This document shows positions 13,885 through 40,472 of a stretch of DNA of 59,217 nucleotides, one piece after another. Origin of the DNA: Candidatus Falkowbacteria bacterium (GTDB lineage Bacteria > Patescibacteriota > Patescibacteriia > Patescibacteriales > UBA12075); assembly GCA_043801965.1 (NCBI GenBank), contig JAZDLN010000021.1:1-59217 (forward strand). Reading direction: 5' to 3'. Every line of letters starts with the position of its first letter. Positions within the stretch are counted from its first letter, which is position 1. Made by a program: the position numbers and the translations under genes. A model generated the notes under the pieces. That model was not told the origin of the DNA, ran no database searches, and saw only the letters and a program-made list of their open reading frames with translations.

Positions 13885-13896
13885 TAAAACAAAAAA

Positions 13897-13997
13897 TCAT
13901 CTTTCCCCGGCATTACGGGGCTGGAAGGGGCACCTTTTCCTTTTAGGGAATGGTTGCCGGCGGGTCATAGAGCCAGTACTCCGGCCGTCCGCGATAA
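13897..13997 (-). ncRNA. SAM-I (S-box) riboswitch aptamer
   Basis: The minus strand reads UUAUC...GGAGUACUGGCUCUAUGACCCGCCGGCAACC...GGUGCCCCUUCCAGC...GAAAGAUGA. This matches the conserved S-box core segment by segment, and it lies upstream of metK. Confidence 0.85.
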
Positions 13998-14123
13998 ATC
14001 GCTTCGGGCCGTCCCGGGGTTCATCCCGGGATCGCCGCGCTCGTGATAAAATTATCAACAAGTATTCAGTTGTTATCTATATTATATAATACAAAATAAA
14101 TTAATGCAATATAAATTTTCCAT

Positions 14124-16511: not shown

Positions 16512-16585
16512 TGGTCGGGCCGGAGGGAATTGAACCCTCGCTACAAGCACCCCATGCTCGCGTACTACCGTTATACTACGGCCCG
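16512..16585 (-). tRNA. tRNA-Pro (anticodon GGG), CCA encoded
   Basis: 74 nt. Acceptor CGGGCCG/CGGCCCG, D arm GTAT..GTAC, anticodon stem CGAGC/GCTTG with loop AUGGGGU (G37), T arm GAGGG-TTCAATT-CCCTC, and A73-CCA. Confidence 0.9.
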
Positions 16586-36565: not shown

Positions 36566-37324
36566 TTATCTTAAACGGCAATTCTTCGCGTATTTTAATC
36601 CCCGACGCCTCATTTCCTCCATAGACTCATCCGACGGAACATCGGTATTCTCAAGGCCTTTATCGATCAGGGATGTGTCGCTTTTAAACCTCTGTAGCCA
36701 CCACGTTTCCGCGCCTTCGATCATGCTTCCCATTTGGTCTATGTCATCTATCCGCGTAAAGGCGGGAACGACCGTCGTTCTGAATTCATACGGCACTCTA
36801 CCTCCCATTATCATTATAATACTTTTCCTGATTTTATCCAAATCATCTTTATTGCCGGTAAACCGCGAATATTTTTCCGGAGCGCCCTTAATATCCATGG
36901 CTATATAATCGACCAAATTTCCCAAAAACAGTTTTTCGATCATTTCCGGATTGGTGCCGTTGGTATCAAGTTTTATTTTATAGCCCAAGGCTTTAACACG
37001 GGCGGCGAACCCCGTTAAATCAAAATGGAGAGTGGGTTCCCCGCCCGTTATCACTATGGCGTCGAGTTTCCCGGCGCGGGATTTAAGAAAAACAAAAAAG
37101 TCATCCTCGCTTATCTGCCCCTGGGGACGGAATTGAGAATAACTCTTTTGGATTTCTTCCGAAGAAGATTCAATAATATCTTTTGTCCCGCCCAAAGAGG
37201 GCACGACAAGCATTGGGTTGTAACAGAACGGACAGCGGAAATTACAGCCTTGGGTAAAAACGATCGCCGCTACCTGCCCGGGATAATCGAGTAAACTGAA
37301 TTTTTGCAAACCGCCGATGATCAT
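36566..37324 (-). CDS. nrdG: Anaerobic ribonucleoside-triphosphate reductase activating protein (radical SAM)
   Basis: CNFRCPFCYNP (CxxxCxxC) near the N-terminus and a GGEPTL motif. It lies downstream of nrdD. Confidence 0.9.
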   Translation of the reverse strand: MIIGGLQKFSLLDYPGQVAAIVFTQGCNFRCPFCYNPMLVVPSLGGTKDIIESSSEEIQKSYSQFRPQGQISEDDFFVFLKSRAGKLDAIVITGGEPTLHFDLTGFAARVKALGYKIKLDTNGTNPEMIEKLFLGNLVDYIAMDIKGAPEKYSRFTGNKDDLDKIRKSIIMIMGGRVPYEFRTTVVPAFTRIDDIDQMGSMIEGAETWWLQRFKSDTSLIDKGLENTDVPSDESMEEMRRRGLKYAKNCRLR

Positions 37325-37396
37325 AGGAGGGTATTAAGCGATCTATCGTATAGCCATTATTTTATTCCGCTTTGTCCGCTATCGCGAATCGTCCGC

Positions 37397-37534
37397 TTAT
37401 TCGTTTACGTTAAAATTCTTGCGGCATTCGTATTCCGCCTGTTTACCGTCATTCCATTGGCTAACCGGGCGCAGATAACCGGTTACCCGGCTGAATACTT
37501 CACAGGGCTGTCTTTTCGTTTTTATTGGACTCAT
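37397..37534 (-). CDS. 45-aa ORF encoding the NrdD glycyl-radical segment as a separate peptide
   Basis: Not in the ORF track because it is under 60 aa. Sequence: MSPIKTKRQPCEVFSRVTGYLRPVSQWNDGKQAEYECRKNFNVNE. It carries the class III RNR C-terminal signature (SRVTGY..RPV..WN.GK..E), which is absent from the 707-aa nrdD ORF. There is no obvious SD. Confidence 0.55.
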   Translation of the reverse strand: MSPIKTKRQPCEVFSRVTGYLRPVSQWNDGKQAEYECRKNFNVNE

Positions 37535-37637
37535 AGGATTGACGATTGAAAATTGACGATTTTCGATTACGACCGAAAAACGGCAATGTCAATTTATTTT
37601 ATTTTTATATTATATAAAATTTTTAACGGTTGATAAT

Positions 37638-39761
37638 TTAAGCCAAATCCATAATCAGCTTTCGATCCATATCCACGTCAATAACGATCGGCGGCTTTTC
37701 GGCTGCCGGCGGATTTTGAACGGAATCGCCCTTATAACCGTTCTCTTTGTCGCATTTCGGGCAATAATGGTGTTCTCCGACGAGATAACCGTGTTTCGGA
37801 CAAATCGAGAAGGTCGGGGTCAGCGTAAAATACGGCAGCTGGTAATTAGTGGCTATCTTACGGACAAGCTTTTTTACCGCTTCGGCCGAAGGCAGGGCTT
37901 CGCCCAGATAAGCGTGTAAAACCGTACCACCCGTATATTTCGTCTGGATATCATCCTGCAGATCAAGCGCCTCGAAAAGATCATCCGTGTAATTAACCGG
38001 CAATTGCGTGGAATTCGTATAGAAAGGAGAGGCTTTCCGGGTCCTGACTCCGTCTTCATTAGCTACGATGATATCGGCGTGCTTATCCTTATCTATCCTG
38101 GCAAGCCTTCTGGAAGTGCCTTCCGCCGGGGTCGCTTCCAGATTATAAAGGTTGTTGCTGGAATTCTGGTAATCCATGATCCGCTCCCTCATATAATTAA
38201 GTATTTCCAGGGCGAATTCCTTGCCGGAAGCTGACGCGATATTGTTCCGTACCGGAGCGAAATTCAGGAGTGCTTCGTTCATGCCGATTATGCCAATCGT
38301 GGAAAAATGATTTTTCCAGTATTGGTCGAAGCGCTTTTTTATATTCTTAAGATAGTGCCGGGCATAAGGATAAAGTCCGCGGTCGGTCAGGTCTTCCAGT
38401 ACCTGCCGCTTCATCTCGAGGCTTTCTTTGGATATCTGCATCATATTATAAAGCCTCTCGAAAAATTCCTTTTTATCCTTGGATAAATAACCGATGCGGG
38501 GGAGGTTGATCGTTACCACGCCGATCGAGCCGGTTAAGGGATTGGCCCCGAAAAGTCCGCCGCCCCGTTTCCTGAGCTCGCGGTTATCAAGCCTTAAGCG
38601 GCAGCACATGCTCCTGGCGTCATCCGGATCCATGTCGGAATTGATATAGTTCGAAAAATAGGGAATGCCGTATTTAGCCGTCATTTCAAAAACCTTTTCC
38701 GCTACCGGCGAATCCCAATCGAATTTTTTCGTAATATTGTAAGTCGGGATGGGAAACGTGAATACCCGGCCCTTGGCGTCCCCTTCCATCATGACCTCGG
38801 CGAAAGCCGTATTGATCATGTCCATCTCAGCCTGGAAATCCTTGTATTTCTCTTTCTGGATCTCGCCGCCATAAACGACGTTCTCCTCGCCGGTCTGCTT
38901 GGATGGGATCATATCCATGGTAATATTGGTAAAAGGCGTCTGGAATCCCACGCGGGTCGGAACGTTTATGTTAAATAAGAATTCCTGGAGTCCCTGCTTT
39001 ACTTCTTTATAATTAAGCTTGTCATAACCGACGAAAGGAGCTAAAAAGGTGTCAAAACCGGAAAAAGCCTGGGCGCCGGCCACCTCCCCCTGAAGAGTAT
39101 AAAAGAAATTAACCACCTGGCCCAAAGCCGTCCGGAAATGTTTCGGAGGCTTCGATTCAACCTTGCCGGTAACGCCGGCGAATCCGAGTCGAAGCGTCTC
39201 TTTAAGGTCCCAGCCGGCGCAATACGGCGCCAGTAACTGCAGGTCGTGGATATGGATATCGCCATCCTGGTAAGCGCTCCTGATATTAGCGGAATAAACC
39301 TTTGAGAGCCAGTAGTTGGAAGATATTATAGAAGCCAAATGGTTATTAAGCCCCTGTAGGCTGTAGCCCATATTAGAGTTCTCCTTTACCCGCCAATCCG
39401 ACTGCTTCAGGTAATTCTCGATGATATCATTCGAATCGATTCGGGAATCGATCGCGTTCATTTCCCGATTCCGGGCCCGCTGGTCGCGGAACAGGATAAA
39501 AGCTTTAGCCGCTTTGATCTCCCGATTATCGATCAGAACTTCTTCGACCAGATCCTGAACCTCTTCCACGGCCGGGATGGTTCTGGCGTTGAATTTCTCG
39601 TTAAGCCTGAAAACCACTTCCCGACAATATTTATCAGCTGTTTCCTGATTTTGTTTGCCGACGGCCTCCAGACAGCGGTAAATAGCGGTAGTGACCTTAT
39701 CCCGGTTGAAATCCGTGATCTTGCCGTCACGTTTCCTGATTTTTGAAATTTCGTTTTGCAT
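37638..39761 (-). CDS. nrdD: Anaerobic (class III) ribonucleoside-triphosphate reductase, large piece lacking the glycyl-radical motif
   Basis: N-terminal ATP-cone (KIRKRDGKITDFNRDKV), catalytic region ARSMCCRLRLD, and a C-terminal Zn ribbon CPKHG...CPKC. A 37-aa tail with no RVxGY motif follows. Confidence 0.9.
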   Translation of the reverse strand: MQNEISKIRKRDGKITDFNRDKVTTAIYRCLEAVGKQNQETADKYCREVVFRLNEKFNARTIPAVEEVQDLVEEVLIDNREIKAAKAFILFRDQRARNREMNAIDSRIDSNDIIENYLKQSDWRVKENSNMGYSLQGLNNHLASIISSNYWLSKVYSANIRSAYQDGDIHIHDLQLLAPYCAGWDLKETLRLGFAGVTGKVESKPPKHFRTALGQVVNFFYTLQGEVAGAQAFSGFDTFLAPFVGYDKLNYKEVKQGLQEFLFNINVPTRVGFQTPFTNITMDMIPSKQTGEENVVYGGEIQKEKYKDFQAEMDMINTAFAEVMMEGDAKGRVFTFPIPTYNITKKFDWDSPVAEKVFEMTAKYGIPYFSNYINSDMDPDDARSMCCRLRLDNRELRKRGGGLFGANPLTGSIGVVTINLPRIGYLSKDKKEFFERLYNMMQISKESLEMKRQVLEDLTDRGLYPYARHYLKNIKKRFDQYWKNHFSTIGIIGMNEALLNFAPVRNNIASASGKEFALEILNYMRERIMDYQNSSNNLYNLEATPAEGTSRRLARIDKDKHADIIVANEDGVRTRKASPFYTNSTQLPVNYTDDLFEALDLQDDIQTKYTGGTVLHAYLGEALPSAEAVKKLVRKIATNYQLPYFTLTPTFSICPKHGYLVGEHHYCPKCDKENGYKGDSVQNPPAAEKPPIVIDVDMDRKLIMDLA

Positions 39762-39977
39762 GGGGAATAATTTAATTACGAATTACAAATAACGGGTGGT
39801 GTCGAATATCATGGCAAGCAGTGATATAACGCAAGTATTTAGTATTAAGCAAGCTAACGTCAGCGTTCGCTTAATACTATATACTTAATACAATATACTA
39901 AATCGCCAAATGACTTTAAAAAAACGCAAACACCGAATATCAACAAAATATATTAACGCGCTATCAATGGTCCCGCC

Positions 39978-40472
39978 TTAATTTTTACGAACGGGGGGGC
40001 GCTTTTTTTTACCTCCTTTGGTTTTTGGAAGTAGTTTATTCAATTCTTCCCGAAAGGCTTCTACGTCCTGAAACGCCCGGTAGACGCTGGCGAAGCGTAT
40101 ATAAGCGATTTGATCCACCTTTTTAAGATGCTTCAGGATTATTTGGCCAACTTCATTAGTGGTTATTTCGGCCTTACGCAGTACCTGCAGGTCCCTTTCG
40201 ATGGAATTAATCAGCTTTTTGAATTTTTCGTCGGTAACCGGCCGTTTCTCCAATGATCTCATGATGCCACGAACAAGTTTTTCCCGGCTATAGGGTTCTT
40301 TCCGTCCGTCTCTCTTTATTATGGTCAAATCGAGGATGATAAGCTCTTCGTAGGTGGAAAACCTAAAACCGCACTTCAGGCACTCCCGGCGCCGACGGAT
40401 CGATAATCCGTCCGCGGCTACTCGGGAGTCGACCACTTTAGTATCTTCATAATAGCAGGCGGGACATTTCAT
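39978..40472 (-). CDS. nrdR: Transcriptional repressor NrdR
   Basis: MKCPAC...CLKCGFRFSTYE zinc ribbon plus an ATP-cone. 164 aa. Confidence 0.95.
   Translation of the reverse strand: MKCPACYYEDTKVVDSRVAADGLSIRRRRECLKCGFRFSTYEELIILDLTIIKRDGRKEPYSREKLVRGIMRSLEKRPVTDEKFKKLINSIERDLQVLRKAEITTNEVGQIILKHLKKVDQIAYIRFASVYRAFQDVEAFREELNKLLPKTKGGKKKRPPVRKN

What the first reader, a model, noticed from the sequence alone, without database searches (positions are those of the whole stretch)
37397..37800. Class III RNR is split: the glycyl-radical motif sits on a separate 45-codon ORF downstream of a truncated nrdD
The 707-aa NrdD ORF has the ATP-cone, the catalytic SMCCRL region and the C-terminal Zn ribbon (CPKHG...CPKC). 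It then runs through 37 unrelated residues and stops at 37638 without the RVxGY glycyl-radical motif that every active class III RNR needs.

An unlisted ORF begins 103 nt further on (37534 to 37397, MSPIKTKRQPCEVFSRVTGYLRPVSQWNDGKQAEYECRKNFNVNE). It supplies the missing segment (CEV.SRVTGY.RPV..WN.GK..E). nrdG follows 72 nt later.

The spacer is AT-rich and low-complexity. It contains a TTGACA-17 nt-TAATCG element and has no obvious SD.

Three readings are possible:
- A genuine two-piece enzyme, in which a replaceable radical-bearing mini-subunit docks onto the large subunit. This would be conceptually like the GrcA/YfiD spare part for pyruvate formate-lyase, useful because O2 cleaves the chain at the radical glycine.
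- An unrecognised intervening sequence that is removed at the RNA or protein level.
- A recently broken gene.

I am not aware of an obligately split NrdD having been described.
Basis: partly seen in the sequence, partly recalled or inferred. Interest (0 to 1): 0.8.

Follow-up and report, generated by a model that had tools for sequence, protein, structure and literature searches.

The report
Two-gene anaerobic ribonucleotide reductase
The anaerobic enzyme that makes DNA building blocks is here encoded in two genes, with its radical-carrying tip on a separate 45-residue protein, and the same split is conserved under selection in many ultra-small bacteria, DPANN archaea and cultured Halanaerobiales, apparently without having been described.

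Summary
The 707-aa ORF (39761..37638, minus strand) matches the NrdD profile at positions 1-531 of 562. The 45-aa ORF (37534..37397) matches positions 531-562 and carries the RVxGY glycyl-radical motif.

It is neither an assembly error nor a fresh pseudogene:
- 66 of 80 related loci, and 50 of 80 in a second set, show the same split.
- These loci come from Patescibacteria, DPANN archaea and cultured Halanaerobium and Orenia.
- Every small ORF has its own start codon, and a GGAGG ribosome-binding site in most DPANN archaeal and Halanaerobiales loci.
- The spacer runs from -74 to +1007 nt and occurs in all three frame relations.
- In Halanaerobiales, nrdG lies between the two pieces.
- The small ORF is under strong purifying selection (pN/pS 0.11) and co-diverges with the large one.
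- No intron model matches, and there is no room for an intein.

The best reading is an obligate two-chain class III RNR whose glycyl-radical domain acts in trans and is activated by the adjacent NrdG. Assembly and activity are inferred, not shown, and structure prediction was uninformative.

The open literature I searched describes the PFL spare part GrcA/YfiD and other split RNRs, but not this one. I file it as a new variant of a known kind.

The parts
39978..40472 (-). nrdR, the transcriptional repressor of nrd genes, directly upstream of the operon
   Evidence: Pfam Zn_ribbon_NrdR (E 6e-21) plus ATP-cone (E 6e-20). An nrdR homologue sits directly upstream of split nrdD in nearly all Patescibacteria and DPANN loci, and in 0 of 14 fused loci.
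39833..39906 (.). Repeated AATACxATATACT-type boxes and an inverted repeat between nrdR and nrdD-L; candidate NrdR operator
   Evidence: the repeat finder D1, I1 and I2. The assignment to NrdR is an inference from position only.
37638..39761 (-). nrdD-L: large chain of the class III RNR (707 aa). It holds the ATP-cone, catalytic barrel, Zn ribbon and tail, and has no glycyl-radical motif.
   Evidence: PF13597 positions 1-531 of 562, E 4e-182; NF006126 1043 bits. None of the 120 closest database homologues has a Gly motif either.
39474..39743 (-). ATP-cone (aa 7-96) of nrdD-L
   Evidence: PF03477, E 3e-17
38595..38612 (-). SMCCRL (aa 384-389), the Cys-Cys stretch of the catalytic region
   Evidence: Read directly from the sequence. 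C386 and C387 are invariant in alignments A3 and A4. Its identification as the finger loop that carries the thiyl-radical cysteine rests on the literature on T. maritima-type NrdD (PMC9669993); I did not check it residue by residue.
37752..37802 (-). Zn-ribbon CPKH...CPKC (aa 654-670), the last conserved NrdD element on the large chain
   Evidence: C654, H657, C667 and C670 are invariant. The alignment to 4coi ends at large-ORF aa 673.
37641..37751 (-). 37-residue tail of nrdD-L (aa 671-707). It has a conserved start (DxE-x-GY), a variable acidic middle, and a clade-conserved C-terminal motif (DMDRKLIMDLA here; consensus DIERDIIxALA).
   Evidence: Position-by-position residue frequencies from 186 tails. 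The tail shows 5 synonymous and 0 non-synonymous differences against the sibling strain L001. Its function is unknown.
37535..37637 (-). 103-nt AT-rich intergenic spacer with stop codons in all three frames
   Evidence: No Rfam family matches. Spacer length is not conserved even between sister genomes, for example 85 versus 11 nt.
37609..37636 (-). Promoter-like TTATCA-16-TATAAT just after the nrdD-L stop codon
   Evidence: 10 of 12 consensus positions match. The region as a whole is not enriched (10 sites found against 7.5 expected), so this is only a lead. The sequence is identical in L001.
37552..37587 (-). Hairpin in the spacer (14-nt arms, 8-nt loop), followed by T-rich sequence
   Evidence: the repeat finder I3. 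The RNA fold of the spacer has z = -2.0. It is retained in L001, where one C-G pair becomes U-G. Function unknown.
37397..37534 (-). nrdD-S: 45-aa glycyl-radical chain. Gly19 (codon 37480..37478) lies in the RVTGY motif.
   Evidence: PF13597 positions 531-562 of 562, E 7e-10. It aligns to 4coi residues 616-645. R16, G19, P23, N28, K31, E34 and R38 are invariant and C11 is 99% conserved. pS 0.45 against pN 0.009 versus L001, and pN/pS 0.11 over 17 pairs.
36566..37324 (-). nrdG, the radical-SAM activase
   Evidence: TIGR02495 NrdG2, 193 bits against a cut-off of 131. It lies within about 2 kb downstream of the nrdD-L stop in 78 of the 80 loci of the first set, fused or split.

Best explanation
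This is a conserved two-gene class III (anaerobic) ribonucleotide reductase. nrdD-L encodes the ATP-cone, the catalytic barrel with its Cys loop, and the Zn ribbon. nrdD-S encodes only the glycyl-radical domain, about 40-50 residues.

The two are translated separately from one operon, nrdR / nrdD-L / nrdD-S / nrdG. NrdG abstracts a hydrogen atom from Gly19 of NrdD-S. NrdD-S then inserts its Gly loop into the barrel of NrdD-L without a covalent link. There it sits opposite the Cys loop and generates the thiyl radical, as the C-terminal domain does in one-chain NrdD.

Shown here:
- The split itself, with the boundary exactly between the Zn ribbon and the Gly domain.
- Its wide conservation.
- Independent start signals on the small ORF.
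- Purifying selection on both pieces and their co-divergence.

Inferred:
- Non-covalent assembly.
- Activation by NrdG.
- Catalytic competence.

Speculative:
- That the benefit is cheap replacement of the oxygen-cleaved radical chain.
- That the benefit is easier access of the activase to a free Gly domain.
For: 1. Complementary profile coverage. The large ORF covers PF13597 positions 1-531 and the small ORF positions 531-562. NF006126 covers 3-650 and 649-683. PDB 4coi covers 105-611 and 616-645.

2. Recurrence.
- 66 of 80 loci related to the window's NrdD are split in the same place.
- 50 of 80 loci related to the Halanaerobium NrdD are split in the same place.
- These loci span Patescibacteria, DPANN archaea and cultured Halanaerobium saccharolyticum, H. 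kushneri, H. salsuginis and Orenia metallireducens.
- All 120 closest database homologues of the large ORF lack the Gly motif.
- 146 of the 150 best hits among 50%-identity cluster representatives to a small-ORF profile are 42-159 aa proteins.

3. Separate translation.
- Every small ORF has its own ATG or GTG.
- A GGAGG motif lies 6-9 nt upstream in most DPANN archaeal and Halanaerobiales loci.
- The spacer runs from -74 to +1007 nt and occurs in all three frame relations.
- Some ORFs overlap.
- In Halanaerobiales the order is nrdD-L, nrdG, nrdD-S.

4. Selection.
- Against the sibling strain L001, the small ORF has 11 synonymous codon changes and 1 non-synonymous.
- pN/pS is 0.11 over 17 sister pairs.
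- The small ORF is as conserved as the catalytic core: 74% against 69% mean identity.
- Its divergence tracks that of the large ORF (Mantel r 0.59; 0 of 2000 permutations reached it).

5. The activase NrdG lies next to nrdD in 78 of the 80 loci.

6. Precedent. A GRE core can work with a Gly domain supplied in trans: YfiD/GrcA restores oxygen-cleaved PFL (PMC8683613).
Against: There is no expression, protein or activity data for any member.

AlphaFold2 on the concatenated chains did not place the small part with confidence. pLDDT was 31-57 over residues 708-752 and the mean was 66.7. So docking is not supported by modelling here.

The small ORF in this window lacks a Shine-Dalgarno sequence. 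Neither nrdD-L nor nrdG in this window has one, and several close relatives do.

I could not check whether these genomes hold another RNR that would make this operon dispensable.

Some DPANN loci have the two ORFs overlapping in the +1 frame behind a strong SD-like site. A frameshift fusion product in that subset cannot be excluded from sequence alone.
Confidence: 0.78

Rival explanations
1. An intervening sequence is removed, or the ribosome joins the frames, so the cell still makes a one-chain NrdD. Candidate routes are a group I/II or archaeal intron, an intein or split intein, translational bypassing, or a programmed frameshift.
For: Phage nrdD genes are often interrupted by introns or homing-endonuclease genes (PMC3653736). 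In a DPANN subset the ORFs overlap by 8-74 nt, mostly in the +1 frame, behind a GGAGG-like site. A few relatives (L106, L128) are in-frame fusions that keep the long linker.
Against: - No Rfam family, group I/II introns included, matches 37200-38000 even at E up to 10.
- Spacer length varies from -74 to +1007 nt and differs between sister genomes. All three frame relations occur.
- The window's spacer has stop codons in every frame.
- In Halanaerobiales a whole gene (nrdG) lies between the pieces.
- The tail plus the small ORF's leader total about 45 residues or fewer, well below the size of known inteins (my own knowledge, not tested here), and there are no intein junction residues.
- Every small ORF keeps a start codon at the same position relative to the motif.
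Confidence: 0.05
2. A recently broken gene or an assembly error: a dead nrdD with a chance downstream ORF.
For: The genome is a metagenome-assembled genome. The spacer is AT-rich and low in complexity.
Against: The same architecture is present in an independently assembled sibling genome (L001, MFGB01000016.1, 95% nucleotide identity in this region). It is also present in more than 100 other loci, including isolate genomes. pN/pS is 0.11 on the small ORF, and the tail shows only synonymous changes.
Confidence: 0.01
3. The two chains are made separately but are then joined covalently after translation by an unknown ligase or trans-splicing-like chemistry.
For: The large chain has a conserved C-terminal motif (DIERDIIxALA) and the small chain a conserved N-terminus (MSPIxTKRQ) in the Patescibacteria clade. 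These could be recognition elements. The small ORF has a weak, non-significant resemblance to the N-part of the Npu DnaE split intein (E 0.3-0.8).
Against: No ligase or intein-like gene is conserved in the operon (and the ORF lists). The conserved end motifs are missing in DPANN and Halanaerobiales versions, which are split all the same. The intein resemblance is at chance level.
Confidence: 0.04
4. The small protein is only an auxiliary spare part or regulator, and the large chain works without it, using another radical source.
For: The tail keeps a conserved x-G-[YF] dipeptide (D-x-E-I-G-Y) right after the Zn ribbon. MAFFT aligned the Gly domain of fused relatives onto this tail.
Against: Apart from the G-[YF] dipeptide, the tail has none of the residues that are invariant in the small ORFs' Gly domain (R16, P23, N28, K31, E34, R38). 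A profile-profile comparison of tails and small ORFs is not significant (P 0.13). The window's own tail reads NGYKGD. No known class III RNR works without the Gly domain; that last point is established knowledge, not tested here.
Confidence: 0.03

Closest known systems
Canonical one-chain class III RNR (NrdD with NrdG), e.g. T. maritima NrdD (PDB 4coi/4u3e), phage T4 and E. coli NrdD
   Same: Same family and same parts in the same order: ATP-cone, barrel, Cys loop, Zn ribbon, Gly-radical motif, and an adjacent NrdG activase. Fused relatives are 58-63% identical to the window's large chain.
   Different: Here a stop codon, a spacer and a new start codon separate the Zn ribbon from the Gly domain. 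The radical site is therefore on a separate 45-aa chain. The large chain also carries an extra tail with a conserved end.
GrcA/YfiD and phage T4 Y06I, the 'spare part' autonomous glycyl-radical proteins for pyruvate formate-lyase
   Same: A small free-standing protein that carries a glycyl-radical domain. It is activated by the enzyme's own activase and supplies the radical in trans to a large core (PMC8683613).
   Different: GrcA is derived from PFL (PF01228), whereas the small ORF here matches only the NrdD profile. GrcA rescues a PFL that has lost its own Gly domain to oxygen. Here the large chain never has one, so the small chain would be obligatory rather than a spare. As of 2021 only the two PFL spare parts were validated.
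Genes-in-pieces class I RNR of Aeromonas phage Aeh1 (NrdA-a / NrdA-b)
   Same: An RNR catalytic subunit encoded as two polypeptides that reassemble into an active enzyme (PMC3045599, PMC3653736).
   Different: That split is caused by insertion of the mobE homing-endonuclease gene into nrdA in one phage. Here there is no endonuclease gene, the split is at the Gly domain of nrdD, and it is conserved across phyla.
Split class II RNR NrdJa / NrdJb (Pseudomonas aeruginosa and relatives)
   Same: A naturally two-chain RNR catalytic subunit conserved in a clade, in which the C-terminal accessory domains are on the second chain (PMC4520616; PMC9669993).
   Different: It is a different RNR class with a different split point. 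The second chain carries IscU-like and Zn-finger domains, not the radical site.
Intron- or endonuclease-interrupted nrdD of phages (T4 nrdD group I intron, Lactococcus phage 949, Aeromonas phage phiAS4)
   Same: nrdD appears as two or more coding pieces in the genome (PMC3653736).
   Different: Those are lineage-specific interruptions by mobile elements or unexplained breaks. Here no intron model matches, and the pieces behave as separate genes under selection.

Membership tests
Class III ribonucleotide reductase (NrdD) | Catalytic core matching the NrdD profile | tested here: met
   PF13597, E 4e-182; NF006126, 1043 bits against a cut-off of 548; TIGR02487, 519 bits against 326
Class III ribonucleotide reductase (NrdD) | Conserved cysteine(s) in the catalytic region, where the thiyl radical forms | tested here: met
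   SMCCRL at aa 384-389. C386 and C387 are invariant in alignments A3 and A4. Their identification as the finger-loop cysteines rests on the literature (PMC9669993), not on a residue-by-residue check.
Class III ribonucleotide reductase (NrdD) | C-terminal Zn-binding ribbon before the Gly domain | tested here: met
   C654, H657, C667 and C670 are invariant
Class III ribonucleotide reductase (NrdD) | Glycyl-radical motif RVxG[FWY] on the same polypeptide as the core | tested here: not met
   The large ORF stops after profile position 531 of 562. The motif is on the separate 45-aa ORF.
Class III ribonucleotide reductase (NrdD) | Cognate radical-SAM activase NrdG encoded alongside | tested here: met
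   TIGR02495, 193 bits against a cut-off of 131. NrdG lies next to nrdD in 78 of the 80 loci.
Class III ribonucleotide reductase (NrdD) | Glycyl radical detectable by EPR, and NTP reduction | not testable with these tools
   Needs purified proteins under anoxic conditions
GrcA/YfiD autonomous glycyl-radical cofactor | Small free-standing protein consisting of a glycyl-radical domain | tested here: met
   45 aa with its own start codon and an RVTGY motif
GrcA/YfiD autonomous glycyl-radical cofactor | Homology to the PFL C-terminus (Pfam Gly_radical PF01228 / IPR011140) | tested here: not met
   PF13597 (NRDD) is the only Pfam hit even at E up to 1
GrcA/YfiD autonomous glycyl-radical cofactor | Partner enzyme has its own Gly domain, and the small protein replaces it after oxygen cleavage | tested here: not met
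   The partner, nrdD-L, has no Gly domain at all
Intron- or intein-interrupted nrdD | Recognisable self-splicing intron or intein between the coding pieces | tested here: not met
   No Rfam match at E up to 10. The spacer is not conserved in length or sequence. The tail plus leader total about 45 aa, which I take (from memory, not tested) to be too short for an intein.
Genes-in-pieces RNR (Aeh1 type) | Split created by an inserted homing-endonuclease gene | tested here: not met
   The only ORF of 30 aa or more reaching into the 103-nt spacer is a 30-aa TTG frame (37500..37592) with no endonuclease features. Where a gene intervenes, in Halanaerobiales, it is nrdG.

The most novel reading that the evidence does not exclude
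The 40-50 residue NrdD-S is a dissociable, consumable radical cofactor. NrdG activates the free peptide without having to pull a tethered domain out of the barrel. The activated peptide then docks onto NrdD-L. After an oxygen pulse cleaves it at Gly19, it is swapped for a fresh copy, so the 707-residue core survives. On this reading the PFL 'spare part' principle has become the obligate design of an essential enzyme in ultra-small, oxygen-exposed anaerobes. The small chain may also be supplied in excess from an internal promoter in the spacer.
Probability: 0.3. Interest if true: 0.85.

Novelty: new variant of a known kind. Interest (0 to 1): 0.72.

Why it matters
Reviews up to 2026 describe glycyl radical enzymes as carrying the radical glycine on the C-terminal domain of the catalytic polypeptide (PMC13450708). 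The only validated trans-acting Gly domains are the PFL spare parts (PMC8683613).

A conserved class III RNR with its radical domain on a separate gene product would matter in three ways:
- It would be the first glycyl radical enzyme with an obligately trans radical domain.
- It would be a natural system for separating the two steps that are hard to study in one-chain enzymes: presentation of the Gly domain to the activase, and its insertion into the barrel.
- It is a candidate explanation for how CPR bacteria and DPANN archaea, with minimal biosynthetic budgets, keep an oxygen-labile enzyme of dNTP synthesis running.

Cultured Halanaerobium and Orenia strains carry the same split, so it can be tested directly.

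There is also a practical consequence. Annotation pipelines and RNR surveys that require a Gly motif in NrdD would score these genomes as carrying a defective RNR.

Tried and rejected
1. Structure prediction of the concatenated large and small chains.
- Job 1 used an alignment that MAFFT had misaligned: the large homologues slid onto the small region. It gave mean pLDDT 54.6.
- Job 2 used a clean but shallow alignment (A5). It gave mean pLDDT 66.7 and 31-57 over the small chain. This says nothing about docking.

2. 'The tail is a degenerate relic of the Gly domain.' MAFFT suggested this by aligning fused Gly domains onto the tail. A profile-profile comparison gave P 0.13, so there is no support.

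3. An intron or other structured RNA in the spacer. Rfam shows only noise. The hairpin has z = -2.0. The promoter scan is not enriched over shuffled sequence.

4. NrdR boxes in the spacer. The repeated boxes upstream of nrdD-L have no copy in the spacer.

5. Context of stand-alone Zn-ribbon plus Gly-domain proteins (P0229, P0349). The contigs are only 0.8-1.1 kb, so no conclusion is possible.

6. Literature. Eight full-text searches and six papers read gave no description of this split. Subscription-only papers were not searchable, so prior description cannot be excluded.
Full report
**Observation**

On the minus strand the window encodes nrdR (40472..39978), a 707-aa NrdD ORF (39761..37638), a 103-nt spacer, a 45-aa ORF (37534..37397), a 72-nt gap and nrdG (37324..36566).

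- Pfam's NRDD model covers the large ORF over profile positions 1-531 of 562 (E 4e-182). It covers the small ORF over positions 531-562 (E 7e-10).
- NCBIfam NF006126 divides in the same way, 3-650 and 649-683 of 684.
- Against solved structures, the large ORF aligns to T. maritima NrdD (4coi) residues 105-611. A profile of the small ORFs aligns to residues 616-645, YMRIVGYLVPVS....

The chain is cut between the Zn ribbon (CPKH...CPKC, aa 654-670) and the glycyl-radical loop (RVTGY, Gly19 of the small ORF). The window comes from a Candidatus Falkowbacteria genome; the nearest public contig is MFGB01000016.1.

**Is it real?**

I fetched 80 loci that encode relatives of the large ORF and located the Gly motif in each.

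- 66 are split at the same place and 14 are fused.
- A second set of 80 loci, seeded with the Halanaerobium protein, gave 50 split, 29 fused and one unresolved.
- Split loci come from many Patescibacteria and from DPANN archaea (Woese-, Pace-, Nano-, Micr- and Iainarchaeota).
- They also come from isolate genomes: Halanaerobium saccharolyticum, H. kushneri ATCC 700103, H. salsuginis ATCC 51327 and Orenia metallireducens.
- All 120 closest database homologues of the large ORF lack the Gly motif.
- A profile of small ORFs, searched against 1.84 billion representative proteins, found 4886 hits. 146 of the best 150 are 42-159 aa proteins.

A sibling strain (L001) has the same layout at 95% nucleotide identity in this region. 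This rules out an assembly error or a fresh pseudogene.

**Are the two pieces separate genes?**

- Every small ORF has its own ATG or GTG at a fixed distance before the motif.
- In most DPANN archaeal and Halanaerobiales loci a GGAGG motif sits 6-9 nt upstream of that start codon.
- Neither nrdD-L nor nrdG in this window has a Shine-Dalgarno sequence either.
- The distance between the large ORF's stop and the small ORF's start runs from -74 (overlap) to +1007 nt. All three frame relations occur, and the distance differs between sister genomes, for example 85 versus 11 nt.
- In Halanaerobiales the order is nrdD-L, nrdG, nrdD-S.
- The window's spacer has stops in all frames and matches no Rfam family even at E 10.
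- The tail plus the small ORF's leader total about 45 residues. From my own knowledge of intein sizes, that is too short for an intein.

Splicing, bypassing and inteins are therefore very unlikely. A frameshift fusion product in the overlapping DPANN subset cannot be excluded from sequence alone.

**Selection**

- Window versus L001: the small ORF differs by 11 synonymous codon changes and one non-synonymous. The 37-residue tail differs by 5 synonymous changes and none non-synonymous.
- Over 17 sister pairs, pS is 0.60 and pN 0.068, a ratio of 0.11.
- The small ORF is as conserved as the catalytic core: 74% against 69% mean identity.
- Its divergence tracks that of the large ORF (Mantel r 0.59; 0 of 2000 permutations reached it).
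- R16, G19, P23, N28, K31, E34 and R38 are invariant, and C11 is 99% conserved.

**The tail**

The tail is not junk. After CPKC comes a conserved D-x-E-I-G-Y, then a variable acidic stretch. In the Patescibacteria clade it ends in D-I-E-R-D-I-I-x-A-L-A (DMDRKLIMDLA here). Its role is unknown.

I tested the idea that it is a decayed copy of the Gly domain, and found no support (hhalign P 0.13). A few DPANN relatives (L106, L128) are in-frame fusions that keep a long linker. This suggests that in this subfamily the Gly domain hangs on a long flexible tether, which is cut in the split forms.

**Phylogeny and context**

A neighbour-joining tree places the split forms in three groups (Halanaerobiales, Patescibacteria, DPANN), with two fused groups between them. 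The deep nodes are unresolved, so the number of origins is open.

nrdG lies within about 2 kb downstream of the nrdD-L stop in 78 of the 80 loci. nrdR sits directly upstream in nearly all split Patescibacteria and DPANN loci, and in none of the 14 fused ones. This suggests that the cassette moves as a unit between these groups.

**Mechanism**

The best-supported reading is an obligate two-chain class III RNR. NrdG puts the radical on Gly19 of NrdD-S, and NrdD-S inserts into the NrdD-L barrel without a covalent link.

The split, its conservation, the separate start signals and the selection are shown. Assembly, activation and activity are inferred from homology and from the precedent that YfiD/GrcA supplies a Gly domain in trans to oxygen-cleaved PFL (PMC8683613).

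Why the split is kept is speculation. Possible benefits are cheap replacement of a 45-residue chain after oxygen cleavage, or easier access for the activase.

AlphaFold2 on the concatenated chains gave low confidence for the small part, so modelling adds nothing.

The spacer holds a promoter-like site (37636..37609) and a hairpin (37587..37552). Both are retained in the sibling strain, but neither is statistically strong.

**Comparison with what is known**

The locus meets every sequence criterion of NrdD/NrdG except one: the Gly motif is not on the core polypeptide.

- It works like GrcA/YfiD but is not a member of that family. The small ORF hits only the NrdD profile, not PF01228, and its partner never has its own Gly domain.
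- Split RNRs are known. Examples are the Aeh1 phage NrdA, cut by a homing-endonuclease gene; NrdJa/NrdJb; and phage nrdD genes cut by introns. None is a conserved split at the radical domain.
- A 2021 paper states that only the two PFL spare parts were validated.
- A 2026 review of glycyl radical enzymes still places the Gly domain within the enzyme polypeptide.
- Eight full-text searches found no description of this architecture, though databases already list the small ORFs as 'anaerobic ribonucleoside-triphosphate reductase'.

**Verdict**

I file it as a new variant of a known kind. Interest is 0.72. Confidence that it is a genuine two-chain enzyme is 0.78.

Noticed in passing
P0229, P0294, P0349; loci L081 389-736 and L082 92-571: Some stand-alone proteins of 115-159 aa combine their own CxxC...CxxC Zn-ribbon-like part with an NrdD-type Gly domain. 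On the two short contigs I looked at (P0229, P0349) they are not next to nrdD, and their neighbours are small unknown proteins. They could be free-standing NrdD 'spare parts' or a second split point.
   Followed up: partly
L001-L080 upstream of nrdD; window 39978-40472: nrdR, a bacterial repressor, sits directly upstream of split nrdD in DPANN archaeal loci as well as Patescibacteria loci, but in none of the 14 fused loci. The nrdR / nrdD-L / nrdD-S / nrdG cassette seems to have moved between the two groups.
   Followed up: partly
window 39833-39906: Three copies of an AATACxATATACT-like box and an 18-nt inverted repeat lie between nrdR and nrdD-L. They are candidate NrdR operator sites. No copy lies in the spacer before the small ORF.
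   Followed up: no
window 37641-37673 (last 11 codons of nrdD-L) and homologues: The large chain ends in a clade-conserved, possibly helical motif (consensus D-I-E-R-D-I-I-x-A-L-A-COOH). It is absent from the DPANN and Halanaerobiales versions. Function unknown.
   Followed up: partly
L019, L020, L022, L025, L029, L031, L060 (large-chain ends); many small ORFs: Several subclades end the large chain or the small chain in Cys-rich tips (ERCSTC, NNSECC, STDCC...ACSE...GCGC). Some fused relatives end in TTCATC. This recalls the C-terminal redox-shuttle cysteines of class I and II RNRs.
   Followed up: no
window 37397-37534 versus PDB 4lx3, 4qfq, 2keq: The small ORF has a weak, non-significant resemblance (E 0.3-0.8) to the N-terminal part of the Npu DnaE split intein (ECxVYS...PVaQWhD). 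This is probably chance.
   Followed up: partly
window 36566-37324 (nrdG), about aa 38-65: NrdG matches TIGR02495 in two stretches, with an extra segment of about 25 residues (VPSLGGTKDIIESSSEEIQKSYSQFRPQG) after the CxxxCxxC cluster motif.
   Followed up: no
P0209, P0215, P0236: A few small Gly-domain proteins carry an internal partial duplication of the EVYSRVVGY...WN segment. It could be an assembly artefact or a real tandem duplication.
   Followed up: no
L106, L128: Two relatives (L128 from a Woesearchaeota MAG; L106 binned as Methanosarcinales) are in-frame fusions that keep the long linker and the 'KKRTRCE(I/V)Y' leader typical of small ORFs. They look like re-fusions, or like the tethered state that preceded the split.
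   Followed up: no
window 13894-14000 (-) and 16512-16585 (-): A SAM riboswitch (Rfam RF00162, 52.6 bits) and a tRNA-Pro(GGG) gene. Both are unrelated to the finding.
   Followed up: no
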